A stretch of 53,807 nt of DNA, from IMG/VR virus record IMGVR_UViG_3300010354_000118, positions 1 to 53,807 of that record; one strand, written 5' to 3'. The notes beneath the pieces are model-generated. The model saw only the letters and a list, made by a program, of their open reading frames with translations. It did not search any database and was not told the DNA's origin. The number at the start of each line of letters is the position of its first letter. The stretch's first letter is position 1. Shown piece after piece: positions 49,826-53,807 of the stretch. The position numbers and the translations under genes are program-made. Origin of the DNA: a virus (taxonomy: Duplodnaviria; Caudoviricetes).

Positions 49826-50839
49826 ATGAATCTTTTTAAAAAAGTAGCATGTTTGACAGATCTTCATGTTGGACTGAAAGGCAATTCTACAGTACATCTA
49901 CAGGACTGTGAAGAATTTGTAGATTGGTTTATACAAGAAGCTAAGACACAAGGCTGTGACACTGCTATATTTCTCGGTGACTGGCATCATCATAGAAACA
50001 GTATTAATCTAATGACCTTGGATGTCAGTATTCGCTGTCTTGAAAAACTAGGAGCAGCATTTGATCAGTTCTTTTGGTTTCCAGGTAATCACGATCTATT
50101 CTACAAAGACAAGCGCAGTATTCACAGCAGCATTTTTGGTAGACATATTCCAGGTGTTACTGTGATTGAAAAAGTAACAACACTAGACGATGTAACCTTG
50201 GTTCCGTGGCTGATCGGTGATGAATGGCGTTCTATGAAATCTGTCCGAAGCCGATATATATTCGGACATTTTGAATTGCCCTTGTTTTATATGAATGCCA
50301 TGATTCAAATGCCCGATCATGGTGAGCTACAAGGCAAAGACATGAGTCATGTAGAATATGTATTCAGCGGACATTTTCACAAACGGCAGAATCAAAACAA
50401 TATTTGGTACATAGGCAATGCTTTCTCTCATAATTATTCAGATTCATGGGACGACGAACGAGGCATGATGATTCTAGAATGGGGATCAAGTCCCAAATTT
50501 ATAAACTGGCCAGACGCTCCTAAGTACAGAACGCTGACTCTCAGTCAGCTCATAGATCAAGAAGATCAAATATTGAAATCAAAAATGTACCTTCGTGTAA
50601 ATCTTGATGTAGATGTCAGTTTCGAAGAAGCTAATTTTATCAAAGATAGATACTACGAAAACAGTGACATTAGAGAAATTACTCTCATACAAGAAAAATA
50701 CAACATAGAACAGGGTCTAGAAGACAAAGAAAATGCTGTTTTTGAAAGTGTAGATCAAATTGTCACCGAACAGATCTTAAACATTGATTCAGAAAATATC
50801 GAAGCTAAAATTCTACTAGACATCTACAGAAATCTATAA
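49826..50839 (+). CDS. recombination endonuclease gp47 (Mre11/SbcD-like)
   Basis: TDLHVG, LGDWHH, GNHD, GHFE and SGHFH phosphoesterase motifs. Confidence 0.93.
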   Translation: MNLFKKVACLTDLHVGLKGNSTVHLQDCEEFVDWFIQEAKTQGCDTAIFLGDWHHHRNSINLMTLDVSIRCLEKLGAAFDQFFWFPGNHDLFYKDKRSIHSSIFGRHIPGVTVIEKVTTLDDVTLVPWLIGDEWRSMKSVRSRYIFGHFELPLFYMNAMIQMPDHGELQGKDMSHVEYVFSGHFHKRQNQNNIWYIGNAFSHNYSDSWDDERGMMILEWGSSPKFINWPDAPKYRTLTLSQLIDQEDQILKSKMYLRVNLDVDVSFEEANFIKDRYYENSDIREITLIQEKYNIEQGLEDKENAVFESVDQIVTEQILNIDSENIEAKILLDIYRNL

Positions 50840-52623
50840 TGCTGACTCTACATAATCTCACAGTTAAAAATTTTATGAGCGTGGGTAATCAAACTCAAGC
50901 CATCGATTTCCACAAAGAAAACCTTACCTTGGTTTTAGGATCTAATCTAGATCTAGGGGGTGACGACAGTGGAAGTCGTAACGGAACTGGTAAAACAACA
51001 ATTGTCAATGCTCTTAGTTATTCTATTTTTGGACAGGCTCTGACTAACATTAGAAAAGAAAATTTAATTAATAAAATCAACGGCAAAAACATGTTGGTAA
51101 CAATTGAGTTTGCCCAGCATGGTAATCGTTATAGAATCGAACGAGGACGTAAACCAAATATACTACGACTATTTGTCAACGATAAAGAACAAAAAACTGA
51201 ATTAGAAGAAGACGAAAGTCAGGGCGACAGCAGAGAAACACAAAAGCATATCGACAGTATCATGGGCATGAGTCATAATATGTTTAAACACATATTGGCC
51301 CTAAACACCTATACCGAACCTTTTCTCAGCATGAAGGCTGCGGATCAGCGAGATATCATCGAACAACTATTAGGTATTACTCTGTTAAGTGAAAAAGCAG
51401 AACGTCTAAAACTTGAAATCAAAAATACCAAGGATCAGATACAGGCAGAAACCATACGCATAGAATCTATTAAAACTGCCAACGACAATGTTCAAAAAAG
51501 CATAGACAGTCTCAAAATCAAAAGCTCTGCCTGGGATAACAAGCATGATCAAGAACTAGAAAGTCTAGGTCGTGCCATTGTTAATCTTGAAGCAGTGGAC
51601 ATTGAATCAGAACTTGCATTGCATTCAGCATTAAAAACCTGGGTAGAAAATGATAAGAAATTAACCAGTCTTAGAAAGCAGCAGGCCACATTAGAGACTG
51701 CTGTGGCGCAGGCAGAAAAGACTGTGAAAAAATATCTAGAAGAAGTAGAAAAGTTACGAGATCATAAATGTCACGCCTGTGGACACGAACTTCACGATCA
51801 TCAACACCGAGAAATGTTAGATGAAGCTCTAAAATACAAACAAGATGCTGAAACCTATGCCCTAAAAGTGATCAAAGATTATGGACTAGTGGTTAACGAT
51901 ATTGAAAAAATTGGTCGGCAGGGTGCAAAGCCTAGAACCTTCTACGAAACCGAAGCAGAAGCTCTAGGTCATAAAAATAATTTAGAAAATCTAGAAAAGA
52001 CACTGATACAAAAATCTGAAGAATCTAATCCCTACCAAGAACAAATAGATGAATTAACCAATACTGCCATACAGGAGTTAAACTGGGAAGCAGTAAATAT
52101 GCTATCACGTCTTAAAGAACATCAAGAAGTTCTATTAAAACTGCTGACCAGTAAGGACAGTTTTGTTCGTAAACGAATTATTGACCAAAATCTTAAGTTC
52201 TTAAATAAGCGTCTCAGTTACTATATTGACAAGTTGGGATTACCACATAAGGTCATATTCTTAAACGATCTCAATGTAGAAATCACACAGCTAGGACAAG
52301 ATCTAGACTTTGACAATCTCAGCAGGGGAGAGCGAAATAGACTGATACTGAGCTTGAGTTTTGCCTTCCGTGACGTATGGGAAAGTCTATATCAGTCTAT
52401 CAATTTATTGTTTATAGATGAACTTATAGACTCAGGAATGGATTCTGCTGGTGTAGAAGCAGGACTAGCTGTCCTAAAAAAGATGGCCAGGGAGAGAAAT
52501 AAGAATATATACTTAATAAGCCACAAAGATGAACTAGTAGGCAGAGTAAACAGTGTACTAAGAGTAATAAAAGAAAATGGATTCACCAGCTACAGTAACG
52601 ACCTCGACTATATCGTTAGTTGA
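50839..52623 (+). CDS. recombination ATPase gp46 (Rad50/SbcC-like)
   Basis: KNFMSVG, Walker A NGTGKTT, zinc hook CHAC, signature LSRGE, Walker B LFIDE, ISH. Confidence 0.93.
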   Translation: MLTLHNLTVKNFMSVGNQTQAIDFHKENLTLVLGSNLDLGGDDSGSRNGTGKTTIVNALSYSIFGQALTNIRKENLINKINGKNMLVTIEFAQHGNRYRIERGRKPNILRLFVNDKEQKTELEEDESQGDSRETQKHIDSIMGMSHNMFKHILALNTYTEPFLSMKAADQRDIIEQLLGITLLSEKAERLKLEIKNTKDQIQAETIRIESIKTANDNVQKSIDSLKIKSSAWDNKHDQELESLGRAIVNLEAVDIESELALHSALKTWVENDKKLTSLRKQQATLETAVAQAEKTVKKYLEEVEKLRDHKCHACGHELHDHQHREMLDEALKYKQDAETYALKVIKDYGLVVNDIEKIGRQGAKPRTFYETEAEALGHKNNLENLEKTLIQKSEESNPYQEQIDELTNTAIQELNWEAVNMLSRLKEHQEVLLKLLTSKDSFVRKRIIDQNLKFLNKRLSYYIDKLGLPHKVIFLNDLNVEITQLGQDLDFDNLSRGERNRLILSLSFAFRDVWESLYQSINLLFIDELIDSGMDSAGVEAGLAVLKKMARERNKNIYLISHKDELVGRVNSVLRVIKENGFTSYSNDLDYIVS

Positions 52624-52918
52624 ATATAATAATTACCTAACATGTTATGATCCTCTGTTGGAAAAATTTGTTGAATTATGTAATGATCATAGAAACTATA
52701 CACTGAATCGAGGTACACCTAGTGCAGAAAAAGTAAAAAGTACATTGAAAAGAATCAAATGGCTTTTAGAAGACATGAGAAAATCTATAATCAAAGCTCA
52801 ATTAGAAAATAAAAAAAATTATCACATACAGGTAGCTATCAATAAAAAAGATCCAAATTGGTGGAAGAAACAAAAGCTCAATAAGAATCATTATAGAAAC
52901 CCTAATAATAAAATATGA
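52577..52918 (+). CDS. basic hypothetical protein (start uncertain)
   Basis: Fills the gap between gp46 and the GIY-YIG gene, ATGA-coupled at its 3' end; Lys-rich and helical. Confidence 0.55.
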   Translation: MDSPATVTTSTISLVEYNNYLTCYDPLLEKFVELCNDHRNYTLNRGTPSAEKVKSTLKRIKWLLEDMRKSIIKAQLENKKNYHIQVAINKKDPNWWKKQKLNKNHYRNPNNKI

Positions 52919-53361
52919 CATGGTACTATGATGATAAACCCGTTGACGAACTTCCGGACGATTGTGTAGGATTTGTTTATCTTATCACCAATCTAATCAA
53001 TGACAAAAAATACATAGGCAAAAAATTAGGCAAATTTTCAAAGACCACATATAAAATAGTAAAATTAAAAAACGGCACAAAGAAAAAGAAACGAATCAAA
53101 TCAAAAATAAATTCAGATTGGCAGACTTATTATGGCTCGAACGATCAACTCACAAAAGATGTAGCACAATTAGGCACCGATAAATTTCACAGGCAAATAT
53201 TATATTTTTGTAAATCTAAGGCAGAATGCAGCTATAAAGAAGCACAAGAACAATTCACAAGAAAAGTATTAGAATCAGACGAATATTATAACGGCCAGAT
53301 ATCTGTTCGTGTCCATGGCTCACATATTTTAAAATCCATCAAGGCTCAAAAAACGGTTTAA
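52915..53361 (+). CDS. minimal GIY-YIG family nuclease
   Basis: GFVYLITNLINDKKYIGKK, YYGS, conserved Glu helix (YKEAQEQ) and YYN; no C-terminal DNA-binding repeats. Confidence 0.85.
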   Translation: MTWYYDDKPVDELPDDCVGFVYLITNLINDKKYIGKKLGKFSKTTYKIVKLKNGTKKKKRIKSKINSDWQTYYGSNDQLTKDVAQLGTDKFHRQILYFCKSKAECSYKEAQEQFTRKVLESDEYYNGQISVRVHGSHILKSIKAQKTV

Positions 53362-53774
53362 GGCTCGCACAGGCTAACTTCATGTGCCCTATACCTGGAC
53401 TCTGTGTCGCAGGGATGGAATCTCGTCGCCGTAACGAGAACTCAACCACTACCCTGCTAGGATGAGGATCACTTAAATGCTGTGATTTGGTTGTTTGAAG
53501 ACAAAGAAAGCTAAAAAGACGCTCTAGTGATAGAGCACGTTCATTGGGTATGACCGCGTATGCCCCTTGAGCCGCCGTTGTGATAAAGACTGGGATGGAG
53601 GTACCGGACAACCGCCTCTGCTAAACACCCTAACGCTGTGTGATCTAGGTACTCGGATAATGTAGATCGAACTTTGCCCTGTCTGGGCAAAGTGTGACCG
53701 TTGTATCTGGATAATATATCTCGAGAAAAAGCTTCGAGTCTCGTAGACGAAGAAGACAACGAACGTAGTTCGTT
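53352..53774 (+). ncRNA. candidate large structured non-coding RNA (family not identified; strand and ends inferred)
   Basis: About 50% GC by hand count over 53361-53660 in an AT-rich genome, no credible ORF, about 10 helices including GCTCTA-GTGA-TAGAGC and ACTTTGCCC/GGGCAAAGT. Confidence 0.7.
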
Positions 53775-53782
53775 TATAAATA
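53775..53782 (+). promoter_or_regulatory. T4-type late promoter TATAAATA for the next gene (GGAG 53793-53796, ATG 53803, runs off the right edge)
   Basis: Exact TATAAATA followed by an RBS and ATG. Confidence 0.7.
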
Positions 53783-53807
53783 TTAGATTAACGGAGTCTA
53801 GAATGAA

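What the first reader, a model, noticed from the sequence alone, without database searches (positions are those of the whole stretch)
52915..53774. Minimal GIY-YIG nuclease followed by a ~400-nt ornate non-coding RNA: candidate nuclease-RNA system
Seen: after the GIY-YIG stop (53361) this tightly packed AT-rich genome has ~420 nt with no credible ORF, about 50% GC and dense pairing: GCACA/TGTGC (53367-71/53383-87), TCTCGT/ACGAGA (53421-26/53434-39), CAACCA/TGGTTG (53443-48/53488-93) enclosing GATCAC/GTGATT, GCTCTA-GTGA-TAGAGC (53521-36, GNRA loop), GGGTATG/TATGCCC (53546-65), GAGG..CGG-ACAA-CCG-CCTC (53598-618), GATCTA/TAGATC (53642-68), ACTTTGCCC/GGGCAAAGT (53671-93) and AACGAAC/GTTCGTT (53758-74). 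GCAGGG/CCCTGC (53409-14/53452-57) crosses another helix, suggesting a pseudoknot or alternative fold. AACGGTT in the last codons of the ORF (53352-58) can pair with GACCGTT (53696-702) to close the domain. The nuclease has only a catalytic domain plus a very basic insert (KIVKLKNGTKKKKRIKSK) and lacks the DNA-binding tail of Seg/I-TevI enzymes. Known: IscB/HEARO and TnpB use adjacent or 3'-overlapping RNAs, and phages encode large ornate RNAs (GOLLD, ROOL). Inference: either a ribonucleoprotein (possibly RNA-guided or RNA-regulated) or an independent large phage RNA.
Basis: partly seen in the sequence, partly recalled or inferred. Interest (0 to 1): 0.9.

Follow-up and report, generated by a model that had tools for sequence, protein, structure and literature searches.

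The report
Large structured phage RNA beside nuclease
The stretch after the small nuclease gene is a real folded non-coding RNA of about 415 bases in giant T4-like phages; its first third is a catalogued RNA of unknown function, the rest is unlisted, and it does not appear to work with the nuclease.

Summary
Window 53362-53775 (+ strand) is a conserved structured RNA. Its first 135 nt are a full-length match to Rfam RF01718, Polynucleobacter-1 (102 bits, cut-off 37). The other ~280 nt match nothing in Rfam 15 but are conserved in more than 130 distinct phage copies. My model has 20 helices, three of them pseudoknots. On 49 sequences, 90.8% of cells pair (74.3% shuffled; 37-43% slid) and 68 of 90 pairs show changes on both sides.

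The nuclease-RNA complex reading is not supported.
- Adjacency reflects one syntenic locus: gp47, gp46, small ORF, nuclease, RNA, variable cargo, baseplate genes.
- The same small GIY-YIG protein is single-copy in 341 cultured T4-like phages. Five of these genomes, scanned whole, lack RF01718; so does one complete 162-kb metagenomic phage that carries the protein.
- Three RNA loci carry an unrelated PDDEXK nuclease in the slot.
- Other genes sit between nuclease and RNA in several loci.
- No nuclease residue tracks RNA variation.
- It is not a leader: in 19 of 49 loci the next gene is convergent.

Unexplained and new: two loops about 54 nt apart always carry the same letters at their variable positions. 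One position changed at least 33 times, with both loops identical in 133 of 134 copies. Function is unknown.

The parts
52915..53361 (+). Small single-domain GIY-YIG (SegE-type) nuclease gene. It is a neighbour of the RNA, not shown to be part of it.
   Evidence: ORF. Pfam PF19835, E 2e-32. Full-length match to phrog_447. AlphaFold model with pLDDT 83.6; the only matches with Foldseek probability 0.77-0.89 are the I-TevI catalytic domain (1ln0, 1mk0), at non-significant E-values of 0.25-0.36.
53338..53361 (+). Possible 5' extension of the RNA inside the last codons of the upstream ORF, with semi-conserved AGGC and CGGTT/CAGT motifs.
   Evidence: The motifs recur in some loci where the upstream gene is not the GIY-YIG, but not in all. 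No pairing partner was found. The boundary is uncertain.
53362..53496 (+). 5' domain, equal to Rfam RF01718 Polynucleobacter-1. Helices: 53367-71/53383-87; 53395-400/53406-12; 53421-26/53434-39; 53443-48/53488-93, which encloses 53449-54/53460-64 and 53467-72/53482-87.
   Evidence: 102.3 bits against a cut-off of 37, model positions 1-141. Covariation.
53497..53520 (+). A-rich linker between the two domains.
   Evidence: Variable length with a conserved AAAAGA; no pairing found.
53521..53536 (+). Hairpin (GCTCTA-GTGA-TAGAGC).
   Evidence: All 4 pairs of the main stem change on both sides and 97.5% of cells pair (helix 10).
53540..53571 (+). Long hairpin. Its loop, 53553-53559, pairs with 53633-53639 (pseudoknot).
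   Evidence: Stem: 10 of 10 pairs change on both sides. Loop pseudoknot: 7 of 7 pairs change on both sides and 95.9% of cells pair (helices 12 and 13).
53577..53639 (+). Core of the 3' domain. It holds 53577-81 pairing with 53608-12 (pseudoknot), 53592-94/53628-30, 53598-601/53615-18, the near-invariant GGTACCGG..ACCGCC, and the 3' strand of the loop pseudoknot.
   Evidence: helices 14-16 (98%, 100% and 95% of cells paired). for example 53592-53630 with GC:56 CG:48 UA:18.
53640..53664 (+). First matched loop (GTGA.. N ACTC r G AT r A W G), flanked by a short variable stem.
   Evidence: Variable letters are identical to those of the second loop.
53671..53693 (+). Hairpin between the two loops (CTTTGCCC..GGGCAAAG).
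   Evidence: 86.7% of cells pair, with compensatory changes at 2 pairs (helix 17). Longest run 7.91 with own partner against 6.10 with mismatched partners.
53694..53718 (+). Second matched loop (GTGAC.. N ATCT r G AT r A W A).
   Evidence: Same as the first loop. The fixed difference CTC against TCT holds in 133 of 133 copies that have letters there.
53732..53755 (+). Hairpin (CTTC../..GAAG).
   Evidence: 4 of 4 pairs change on both sides (helix 18).
53757..53775 (+). Terminal hairpin, the likely 3' end of the RNA.
   Evidence: 8 of 8 pairs change on both sides (helices 19 and 20). The consensus scan called no + strand terminator here because the T-run is too short. It called the same hairpin on the - strand.
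53775..53805 (+). Start signals of the next gene: TATAAATA (53775-82), GGAG (53793-96), ATG (53803-05). The gene is cut off by the contig end.
   Evidence: Read from the sequence. TATAAATA occurs 34 times, all 400-519 nt after the RNA start and none before, in the 134 copies scanned. That this is the T4 late-promoter consensus is recalled, not tested.

Best explanation
Window ~53340/53362-53775 (+ strand) encodes a non-coding RNA of about 415-440 nt, carried by a clade of giant (~350 kb) T4-like phages.

Shown:
- It has two domains. The 5' domain is the Rfam family Polynucleobacter-1. The 3' domain, about 280 nt, is not in Rfam and contains at least two pseudoknots.
- It ends in a covarying hairpin, after which the next gene has its own TATAAATA box.
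- It sits at the end of the rightward gp47-gp46-nuclease gene block.
- The 3' domain displays two loops about 54 nt apart whose variable letters are always the same.

Inferred:
- It is made by read-through from the upstream genes or from a start near the nuclease stop codon.
- It acts in trans as a folded RNA.
- Either the two loops contact each other letter-for-letter, or they are two equal docking sites for one sequence-reading partner.

The GIY-YIG gene upstream is a separate gene. It is a small SegE-type nuclease common to T4-like cyanophage relatives, and it happens to occupy a slot that takes free-standing nuclease genes.
For: RNA identity and structure:
- Rfam RF01718 matches full length at 102 bits.
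- nhmmer finds the whole ~360-430 nt in 59 of 80 loci fetched with the nuclease, and in nearly all of the 118 loci fetched with an RNA pattern.
- Structure test on 49 sequences: 90.8% of cells paired against 74.3% shuffled (0 of 500 shuffles reach it) and 37-43% slid; 68 of 90 pairs change on both sides; covariation score 0.450 against 0.180.
- Many G-U pairs occur on the + strand, which fixes the strand.
- No conserved ORF. The minus-strand ORF cluster c11 appears in only about a sixth of 60 loci.

Bounded 3' end and own promoter for the next gene.

Not a leader: in 49 loci with at least 900 nt downstream, the next gene is on the same strand in 30 (15 different protein clusters) and convergent in 19.

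Independence from the nuclease:
- The locus is syntenic.
- 13 of 80 nuclease loci lie in another context without the RNA.
- The complete 161,882-bp record G005 has the nuclease and no RF01718.
- 341 cultured phages have one copy of the protein. 0 of 5 genomes scanned whole have RF01718, while the same search found it in 4 of 4 positive records.
- The PDDEXK_15 nuclease replaces the GIY-YIG in L117, L159 and L101.
- No nuclease column associates with the loop states: maximum MI 0.16-0.26 bit for the three two-purine/pyrimidine loop positions, as in controls.

Matched loops:
- 53655/53709 GG:68 AA:65; 53659/53713 AA:83 GG:50; 53661/53715 UU:111 AA:18 GG:4.
- At least 33, 14 and 13 changes on a tree built without these columns, with identical letters in 133 of 134 leaves.
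- Alignment-free check: 139 of 142 copies differ at no more than one of 8 letters, and in every one-difference case printed that letter is the one before ACTC/ATCT. There are 28 distinct states.
Against: - No transcript evidence: no RNA run was listed for this sequence.
- The 5' end is undefined, and no promoter better than chance lies upstream (5 promoter-like sites against 4.6 expected).
- The + strand T-run after the last hairpin is too short for the terminator scan.
- Every one of the 98 RNA loci with enough upstream sequence has a nuclease gene within about 1.3 kb upstream (95 GIY-YIG, 3 PDDEXK). So some functional tie to 'a nuclease' is not excluded.
- Function and partner are unknown. 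No complementary partner for the loops was found within the loci or in two complete genomes.
- One complete genome (G008/L062) has the 3' domain with a 5' part that RF01718 does not recognise. The two-domain unit is therefore not universal.
Confidence: 0.62

Rival explanations
1. Nuclease-RNA system. The RNA binds the adjacent nuclease as a guide, scaffold or regulator, as omega-RNAs do for IscB and TnpB.
For: A nuclease gene lies upstream of the RNA in 98 of 98 loci with enough upstream sequence. In 88 of these the GIY-YIG stop codon lies within 80 nt of the RNA start. The RNA may overlap the last codons of the upstream ORF. The protein has a lysine-rich beta-hairpin insert and no separate DNA-binding domain. 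The loops vary in a coordinated, 'programmable-looking' way.
Against: The protein family is single-copy in 341 cultured phages in varied contexts. RF01718 is absent from 5 of 5 of those genomes scanned and from the complete G005. 13 of 80 nuclease loci have another context and no RNA. The slot can hold an unrelated PDDEXK nuclease. Methyltransferase-like, RNase H and unknown ORFs sit between nuclease and RNA in L040, L061, L035, L065, L044, L102, L112 and L101. No protein column tracks the loop states. There is no long hypervariable guide segment; the variable parts are inserted hairpins.
Confidence: 0.07
2. A cis-acting 3' element of the upstream transcript. It would be a long structured 3' UTR that stabilises or terminates the gp47-gp46-nuclease message and insulates it from the convergent late genes. 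It might also serve as the conserved landing site beside which free-standing nuclease genes insert.
For: It always lies at the 3' end of the rightward gene block, directly after a stop codon whatever the upstream gene is. It ends in a hairpin that the scan also reads as a minus-strand terminator. In 19 of 49 loci it faces convergent genes. Two unrelated nuclease families occupy the slot next to it, as happens at homing sites. That Seg-type genes sit beside conserved targets, including the T4 tRNA cluster, is recalled and was not tested.
Against: About 400 nt with three or more pseudoknots, many invariant unpaired bases and two matched loops is far more than a stabiliser or terminator needs. 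No nuclease-free allele was seen among 98 loci, so homing is not demonstrated.
Confidence: 0.17
3. A cis-regulatory leader or riboswitch for the downstream gene. This is the original suggestion for Polynucleobacter-1 (marked 'y' for cis-regulatory in the table of PMC2864571; I saw that table passage only).
For: The family was listed as likely cis-regulatory. In 30 of 49 loci a same-strand gene follows. The 5' domain has riboswitch-like conservation of unpaired bases.
Against: The downstream genes belong to 15 unrelated clusters, and in 19 of 49 loci the next gene is convergent. About 280 nt of further conserved RNA, a terminal hairpin and a separate TATAAATA box lie between the Rfam element and any start codon.
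Confidence: 0.05
4. A DNA-level element, such as a replication origin, recombination site or protein-binding repeats, rather than an RNA.
For: The two matched segments are direct repeats, as iterons or paired protein sites would be. The locus borders a recombination-prone variable region.
Against: Compensatory changes keep Watson-Crick and G-U pairs on one strand across 20 helices, including pseudoknots. DNA sites do not require this. The 5' third matches an RNA covariance model at 102 bits.
Confidence: 0.04

Closest known systems
Polynucleobacter-1 RNA motif (Rfam RF01718; Weinberg et al. 2010, PMC2864571)
   Same: Window 53362-53496 is a full-length, high-scoring member. The helices are the same, and the family was likewise first reported from fresh water and estuary.
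   Different: The Rfam model is 141 positions long. Here it is the first third of a ~415-nt conserved RNA. The carriers are ~350-kb T4-like phages. The cis-regulatory reading does not fit.
Large ornate bacterial and phage RNAs (GOLLD, ROOL, OLE, HEARO, raiA)
   Same: It is over 400 nt with several pseudoknots and many invariant unpaired bases, it is phage-borne, and its function is unknown. GOLLD, ROOL and OLE form RNA-only homo-oligomers (PMC12286853; I saw the abstract in the search listing only).
   Different: It matches none of their Rfam models. It is smaller than GOLLD or ROOL (sizes recalled). No evidence on oligomers is available here.
IscB/HEARO and TnpB omega-RNA systems
   Same: A structured RNA lies next to, and perhaps overlaps, the 3' end of a small nuclease gene.
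   Different: The nuclease fold differs (GIY-YIG). There is no guide-like variable end. Nuclease and RNA each occur without the other.
Free-standing Seg-type GIY-YIG endonucleases of T4-like phages
   Same: The protein has a SegE-type GIY-YIG catalytic domain, sits in an intergenic slot that another nuclease family can also occupy, and appears in other contexts in other phages.
   Different: The window's protein has no NUMOD or helix-turn-helix DNA-binding part; a 397-aa relative in L133 does. The family is near-universal and single-copy in 341 cultured phages, which looks more like a settled gene than a sporadic selfish one.

Membership tests
Rfam RF01718 Polynucleobacter-1 | Covariance-model score at or above the curated gathering score, over the full model | tested here: met
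   102.3 bits against 37, model positions 1-141 of 141, E 4e-21.
Rfam RF01718 Polynucleobacter-1 | Consensus helices kept by compensatory changes | tested here: met
   Helices 2-9: 77-100% of cells paired, with changes on both sides in most pairs.
Rfam RF01718 Polynucleobacter-1 | Predicted pseudoknot (recalled from the family description, not seen in a call) | tested here: inconclusive
A 2-bp 5'-tail/loop pairing, 53363-64/53373-74, does covary (helix 1).
Rfam RF01718 Polynucleobacter-1 | 3' end lies near a start codon (cis-regulatory reading; table of PMC2864571, plus recall) | tested here: not met
   About 280 nt of further conserved RNA follow. The next gene is convergent in 19 of 49 loci.
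RNA-guided nuclease systems (IscB, TnpB with omega-RNA) | Nuclease and RNA always occur together | tested here: not met
   Nuclease without RNA: G005, and 5 of 5 cultured genomes scanned. RNA with a PDDEXK nuclease instead: 3 loci.
RNA-guided nuclease systems (IscB, TnpB with omega-RNA) | A hypervariable guide segment beside a conserved scaffold | tested here: not met
   The variable stretches are inserted hairpins and linkers. The loops vary only at about 5 positions each and in step with each other.
RNA-guided nuclease systems (IscB, TnpB with omega-RNA) | RuvC and/or HNH nuclease fold | tested here: not met
   The protein matches GIY-YIG (PF19835). The only fold matches with probability 0.77-0.89 are the I-TevI catalytic domain.
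Seg-type free-standing homing endonuclease | GIY-YIG catalytic domain | tested here: met
   PF19835, E 2e-32; phrog_7363 and phrog_314 'homing endonuclease'.
Seg-type free-standing homing endonuclease | Separate DNA-binding domain (NUMOD, helix-turn-helix) | tested here: not met
   No such Pfam match in the 148-aa protein. A weak NUMOD3 match (E 0.0008, 19.7 bits, just under the 20.4-bit cut-off) occurs only in the 397-aa relative of L133.
Seg-type free-standing homing endonuclease | Sporadic presence, with empty and filled alleles of the same site | tested here: inconclusive
   The slot is filled by GIY-YIG in 95 loci and by PDDEXK in 3 of 98, and none is empty. The family is single-copy in 341 cultured phages.
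Seg-type free-standing homing endonuclease | Cleaves the nuclease-free allele near the insertion site | not testable with these tools
   This needs enzyme assays or mixed infections.
Group I intron, tmRNA, tRNA, other Rfam ribozymes | Match to the family model | tested here: not met
   No other Rfam match at E up to 10 apart from two chance-level ones. ARAGORN found no tRNA or tmRNA in the window or in 7 loci.
Intrinsic terminator at the RNA's 3' end | G+C-rich hairpin followed by a T-run | tested here: inconclusive
   The hairpin covaries (helices 19-20). The + strand T-run fails the scan's rule, and the scan calls the hairpin on the - strand.

The most novel reading that the evidence does not exclude
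The 3' domain is a new kind of RNA architecture. Selection holds two loops letter-for-letter identical while they vary freely between phages. Either the loops form a parallel, like-with-like (G-G, A-A, U-U) helix inside the RNA, a pairing mode not known from natural structured RNAs as far as I recall. Or they are a matched pair of docking sites that read one variable nucleic-acid partner twice. Either way, Polynucleobacter-1 would be redefined as the front part of a large ornate phage RNA.
Probability: 0.3. Interest if true: 0.85.

Novelty: new variant of a known kind. Interest (0 to 1): 0.6.

Why it matters
- An Rfam family that has stood for 16 years as a 141-nt motif of unknown role, thought to be cis-regulatory, turns out to be the first third of a ~415-nt pseudoknotted RNA. 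That RNA belongs to giant T4-like phages and does not behave as a leader.
- This adds a member to the short list of large, complex-folded phage RNAs. It gives a defined construct for structure work: both domains, their boundaries, and more than 130 natural variants.
- The same-letter coupling between two loops cannot be produced by ordinary base pairing. It therefore points either to an unusual tertiary contact or to an unknown partner, and both can be tested with simple double mutants.
- The attractive 'GIY-YIG plus guide RNA' idea is very probably wrong.

Tried and rejected
- Rfam at E up to 10 on 53200-53807 gave nothing for the 3' domain.
- blastn against 50,697 phage records found no match for the RNA.
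- A pattern scan of one genome per prokaryote species gave 91 pattern hits, and 0 were real by nhmmer. The pattern was tailored to the phage copies, so absence from bacteria is not shown.
- I looked for a Watson-Crick partner of the matched loops.
  - Within each locus, the best match was no better than shuffled probes: 3.4 and 2.9 against 3.2 and 3.0 mismatches.
  - In four large records, a pattern allowing wobble found only the loops themselves, plus one extra hit shared by two related records. The control pattern gave a similar count.
  - In two complete genomes, the best site pairing with both loops scored 18-22 against a null mean of 21.
- RNAduplex of the 35 nt upstream against the RNA found no consistent site.
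- An alignment-free search for the best repeated 15-mer did not discriminate (the control was similar), so I dropped it. The anchored version replaced it.
- I considered a codon reading of the loops (sense codon plus UAA or UGA, as in translational bypass). I rejected it because an in-frame stop lies 3 codons upstream in the window, a stop also follows the second site, and there is no conserved ORF.
- I considered a sigma-70 promoter reading of GTGAC..GATAAT and rejected it because the spacing is only 10-12 nt.
- tRNA and tmRNA: none found.
- PDB sequence search with the nuclease gave no meaningful hit.
- Sequencing runs: no RNA holder was listed.
- Supplements of PMC2864571 (motif alignment and drawing) and of PMC10690425 (8,495 candidate viral RNAs of 29-151 nt from IMG/VR) could not be read. 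Part of the 3' domain may be listed in the latter.
- Search for prior description. 'Polynucleobacter-1' found 1 paper, the 2010 paper. 'structured RNA / jumbo phage / covariation' and 'GOLLD / ROOL / phage / large noncoding RNA' found nothing describing this RNA.
Full report
WHAT IS THERE

The window is a whole IMG/VR contig of 53,807 bp, estimated 15% complete. Its right end carries these genes:
- gp47-like Mre11, 49826-50839.
- gp46-like Rad50, 50839-52623.
- A 113-aa ORF, 52577-52918.
- A 148-aa GIY-YIG ORF, 52915-53361.

Then come about 440 nt with no + strand ORF over 35 aa. GC here is 0.47, against 0.29-0.40 in the flanking genes.

Rfam's curated threshold gives one match in the whole window. 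It is RF01718, Polynucleobacter-1, at 53362-53496 on the + strand, 102.3 bits against a cut-off of 37, covering model positions 1-141. A permissive search of 53200-53807 adds only two chance-level hits. So the first third of the 'ornate RNA' is a known family. Its only mention in the searchable literature is a table line in Weinberg et al. 2010 (PMC2864571; for the listing, for the passage). That line reads: RNA likely, cis-regulatory likely, riboswitch uncertain, Burkholderiales and fresh water/estuary.

THE RNA IS MUCH LONGER THAN THE RFAM MODEL

- I fetched 80 viral loci with the nuclease protein; 566 of 600 candidate stretches encoded a relative.
- nhmmer with window 53362-53807 matched 59 of the 80, usually over query positions 1 to 360-430.
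Nearly all carry the whole element.
- After removing duplicates I had 134 distinct copies.
- Conservation runs from the Rfam start to a hairpin at 53757-53775.

STRUCTURE

RNAalifold on 49 sequences found, among other things, a loop-to-strand pseudoknot. A scan of all column pairs gave the model written out, with 20 helices.

5' domain (Rfam helices):
- 53367-71/53383-87
- 53395-400/53406-12
- 53421-26/53434-39
- 53443-48/53488-93, enclosing 53449-54/53460-64 and 53467-72/53482-87

3' domain:
- Hairpin 53521-36.
- Long hairpin 53540-71, whose loop 53553-59 pairs with 53633-39.
- 53577-81 pairing with 53608-12.
- 53592-94/53628-30.
- 53598-601/53615-18.
- Hairpin 53672-92.
- 53732-35/53752-55.
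- Terminal hairpin 53757-75.

Counted on alignment A1:

| Measure | Observed | Shuffled | 3' partners slid 1-3 columns |
|---|---|---|---|
| Cells forming standard pairs | 90.8% | 74.3% (0 of 500 shuffles reach it) | 37-43% |
| Covariation score | 0.450 | 0.180 | 0.074-0.087 |

68 of 90 pairs change on both sides. Frequent G-U pairs on the + strand fix the transcribed strand. Folding the window sequence alone is not persuasive (z -1.97). The evidence is comparative.

- Nine are confirmed.
- GATCTA/TAGATC is weakly supported.
- GCAGGG/CCCTGC is untestable or unsupported.
- The closing helix AACGGTT/GACCGTT is unsupported.
- The 'ACAA loop' is in fact one strand of a pseudoknot.

CONTEXT AND BOUNDARIES

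Clustering the ORFs of 59 loci plus the window shows one syntenic locus (Pfam):

gp47 - gp46 - small ORF - GIY-YIG - RNA - variable cargo genes or none - two minus-strand genes (one a T4 baseplate protein, PF12322) - a large + strand gene.

The adjacency is therefore inherited. It is not a two-part module moving among sites.

After the terminal hairpin many copies carry TATAAATA. It occurs 34 times, all 400-519 nt after the RNA start and none before. In the window it lies at 53775-82 and is followed by GGAG and ATG. From memory, TATAAATA is the T4 late-promoter consensus.

In 49 loci with at least 900 nt downstream, the next gene is on the same strand in 30, spread over 15 protein clusters, and convergent in 19. 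The RNA is thus not a leader for a particular gene.

Upstream of the Rfam start, AGGC and CGGTT/CAGT motifs recur in some loci with a different upstream gene. The element may therefore begin about 25 nt inside the upstream ORF. I found no partner for this stretch.

The carriers are about 350 kb. G001 is 354,680 bp and 100% complete; G004 is 345,154 bp and 99% complete. Each has one RNA and one GIY-YIG gene, adjacent.

IS THE NUCLEASE A PARTNER?

In favour:
- In the RNA-anchored sample, 101 of 118 loci had at least 700 nt upstream of the RNA.
- Of these, 88 have the GIY-YIG directly adjacent and 7 nearby.
- Of the other 6, three were chance pattern hits with no RNA. The remaining three (L101, L117, L159) carry a PDDEXK_15 nuclease (PF24608) in the same slot, and L101 also has an RNase H gene.
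- So all 98 real RNA loci have a nuclease gene upstream.

Against:
- 13 of the 80 nuclease-anchored loci hold a ~70%-identical GIY-YIG in another context, followed by an overlapping 334-398-aa ORF. No RF01718 was found in 20 such or similar loci.
- The complete 161,882-bp record G005 has the nuclease and no RF01718 anywhere.
- tblastn finds one copy of this small protein in each of 341 cultured phages. 259 are Synechococcus phages, and the best match is Methylophilales phage Melnitz at 53% identity. Their neighbourhoods differ.
- RF01718 is absent from 5 of 5 of these genomes scanned whole. The same search found it in 4 of 4 positive records.
- Unrelated ORFs lie between nuclease and RNA in L040, L061, L035, L065, L044, L102, L112 and L101.
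- No column of 104 aligned nucleases associates with the states of the RNA's variable loops beyond what control RNA columns show.
- There is no guide-like hypervariable end.

The protein itself is a bare catalytic domain with a long lysine-rich beta-hairpin at residues 40-66. The model has pLDDT 83.6. The only fold matches with probability 0.77-0.89 are the I-TevI catalytic domain, at non-significant E-values. A 397-aa relative in L133 adds a weak NUMOD3 match, just under Pfam's cut-off.

I read the slot as a place that accepts free-standing nuclease genes beside a very conserved sequence. This resembles the alternative nucleases that share sites in T-even phages (recalled). However, no empty allele was seen, so homing is not shown.

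THE UNEXPLAINED FEATURE

Two segments, window 53640-64 and 53694-718, lie 47-57 nt apart in different copies. Each follows a GTGA(C) motif and each precedes a hairpin in most copies. Wherever they vary, they carry the same letters:

| Position pair | Letter pairs observed |
|---|---|
| 53655/53709 | GG:68 AA:65 |
| 53659/53713 | AA:83 GG:50 |
| 53661/53715 | UU:111 AA:18 GG:4 |
| 53656/53710 | GG:123 CC:6 AA:4 |
| 53650/53704 | AA:69 GG:23 UU:12 CC:5, plus UA:21 |

- Three adjacent letters differ in a fixed way: CUC in the first segment and UCU in the second, in 133 of 133 copies.
- All four combinations of the two purine positions, which lie 4 nt apart, occur. Linkage therefore cannot explain perfect agreement across 54 nt.
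- On a tree built without these columns, the positions changed at least 33, 14 and 13 times. The two segments were identical in 133 of 134 leaves.
- An alignment-free, anchored check agrees: 139 of 142 copies differ at no more than one of 8 letters, and there are 28 distinct states.
- No third column of the RNA covaries with these positions.
- No complementary partner was found in the loci, in four large records or in two complete genomes.

Ordinary pairing cannot give same-letter coupling. The remaining explanations are these:
- A direct parallel like-with-like contact. This needs only double changes, like normal covariation.
- Two docking sites for one sequence-reading partner that lies outside the phage genome or pairs over fewer than about 10 nt.
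- Templated conversion between the repeats. This is hard to square with the fixed CUC/UCU difference right next to the most variable position.

A second odd coupling sits in the 5' domain: 53452/53463 is UC:89 and CU:45, never both U or both C.

DOMAINS ARE SEPARABLE

The complete genome G008 (L062) has a clear 3' domain after its GIY-YIG gene, with both matched loops and the terminal hairpin. Its 5' part is not recognised by RF01718. L186 also lacks the 5' domain. In 9 of 11 divergent loci tested, RF01718 was present.

VERDICT

- The first third is already catalogued. The rest, and the RNA's true size, carriers and non-leader behaviour, are new as far as my three literature searches and Rfam 15 can tell. 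Supplements that might list parts of it could not be read.
- The nuclease-RNA system is very unlikely.
- The most likely reading is a trans-acting, complex-folded phage RNA of unknown function with a pair of matched loops.
- No transcript evidence could be obtained: no RNA holder was listed.

Noticed in passing
window 53775-53805, and the region after the RNA in L002-L081: Between the RNA and the minus-strand baseplate genes lies a hypervariable cargo region. At least 15 unrelated ORF clusters, none with a Pfam match above its curated cut-off, are inserted there in different phages. Many are preceded by TATAAATA.
   Followed up: partly
L117:3963-4481, L159:8819-9382, L101:1198-1719 (-): A PDDEXK_15 (PF24608) nuclease gene replaces the GIY-YIG gene in the same slot upstream of the RNA. 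L101 also has an RNase H gene between it and the RNA.
   Followed up: partly
window 52915-53361 and 341 cultured phage records: This small GIY-YIG protein is widely labelled 'NAD synthetase' (phrog_447 and many GenBank records). Pfam and the fold point to a GIY-YIG nuclease, so the label looks like a propagated misnomer.
   Followed up: partly
window 53452 and 53463: Two pyrimidines in the small internal loop of the 5' domain are always opposite in kind (UC:89, CU:45, never UU or CC). One A-U pair and one A-C mismatch therefore swap places. This is not explained.
   Followed up: no
L062:4430-4900 (record G008) and L186: The 3' domain occurs without a recognisable RF01718 5' domain. In L186 the GIY-YIG match is also truncated at residue 121.
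   Followed up: partly
L021, L024, L035, L052, L069, L074, L078 and others, between gp46 and the GIY-YIG gene: One or two Radical SAM genes (PF04055) are inserted between gp46 and the nuclease in a subset of loci.
   Followed up: no
window 53339-53611 and 53541-53807, minus strand: The 90-aa and 88-aa minus-strand ORFs that overlap the RNA are not conserved. The related ORF cluster c11 appears in about a sixth of 60 loci. They are by-products of the G+C-rich RNA gene.
   Followed up: yes
window 52577-52918: A 113-aa ORF overlaps the end of gp46 and ends in ATGA with the GIY-YIG start. It has no Pfam or PHROG match. Two alternative small-ORF clusters (c6, c7) hold this position in relatives.
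   Followed up: no
G003:C1:200580-200591 and G004:C1:62634-62645: One extra 12-letter match to the pattern (the reverse complement of the second loop) lies about 145 kb from the RNA in G004, and also in the related record G003. The count is within what the control pattern gives.
   Followed up: no
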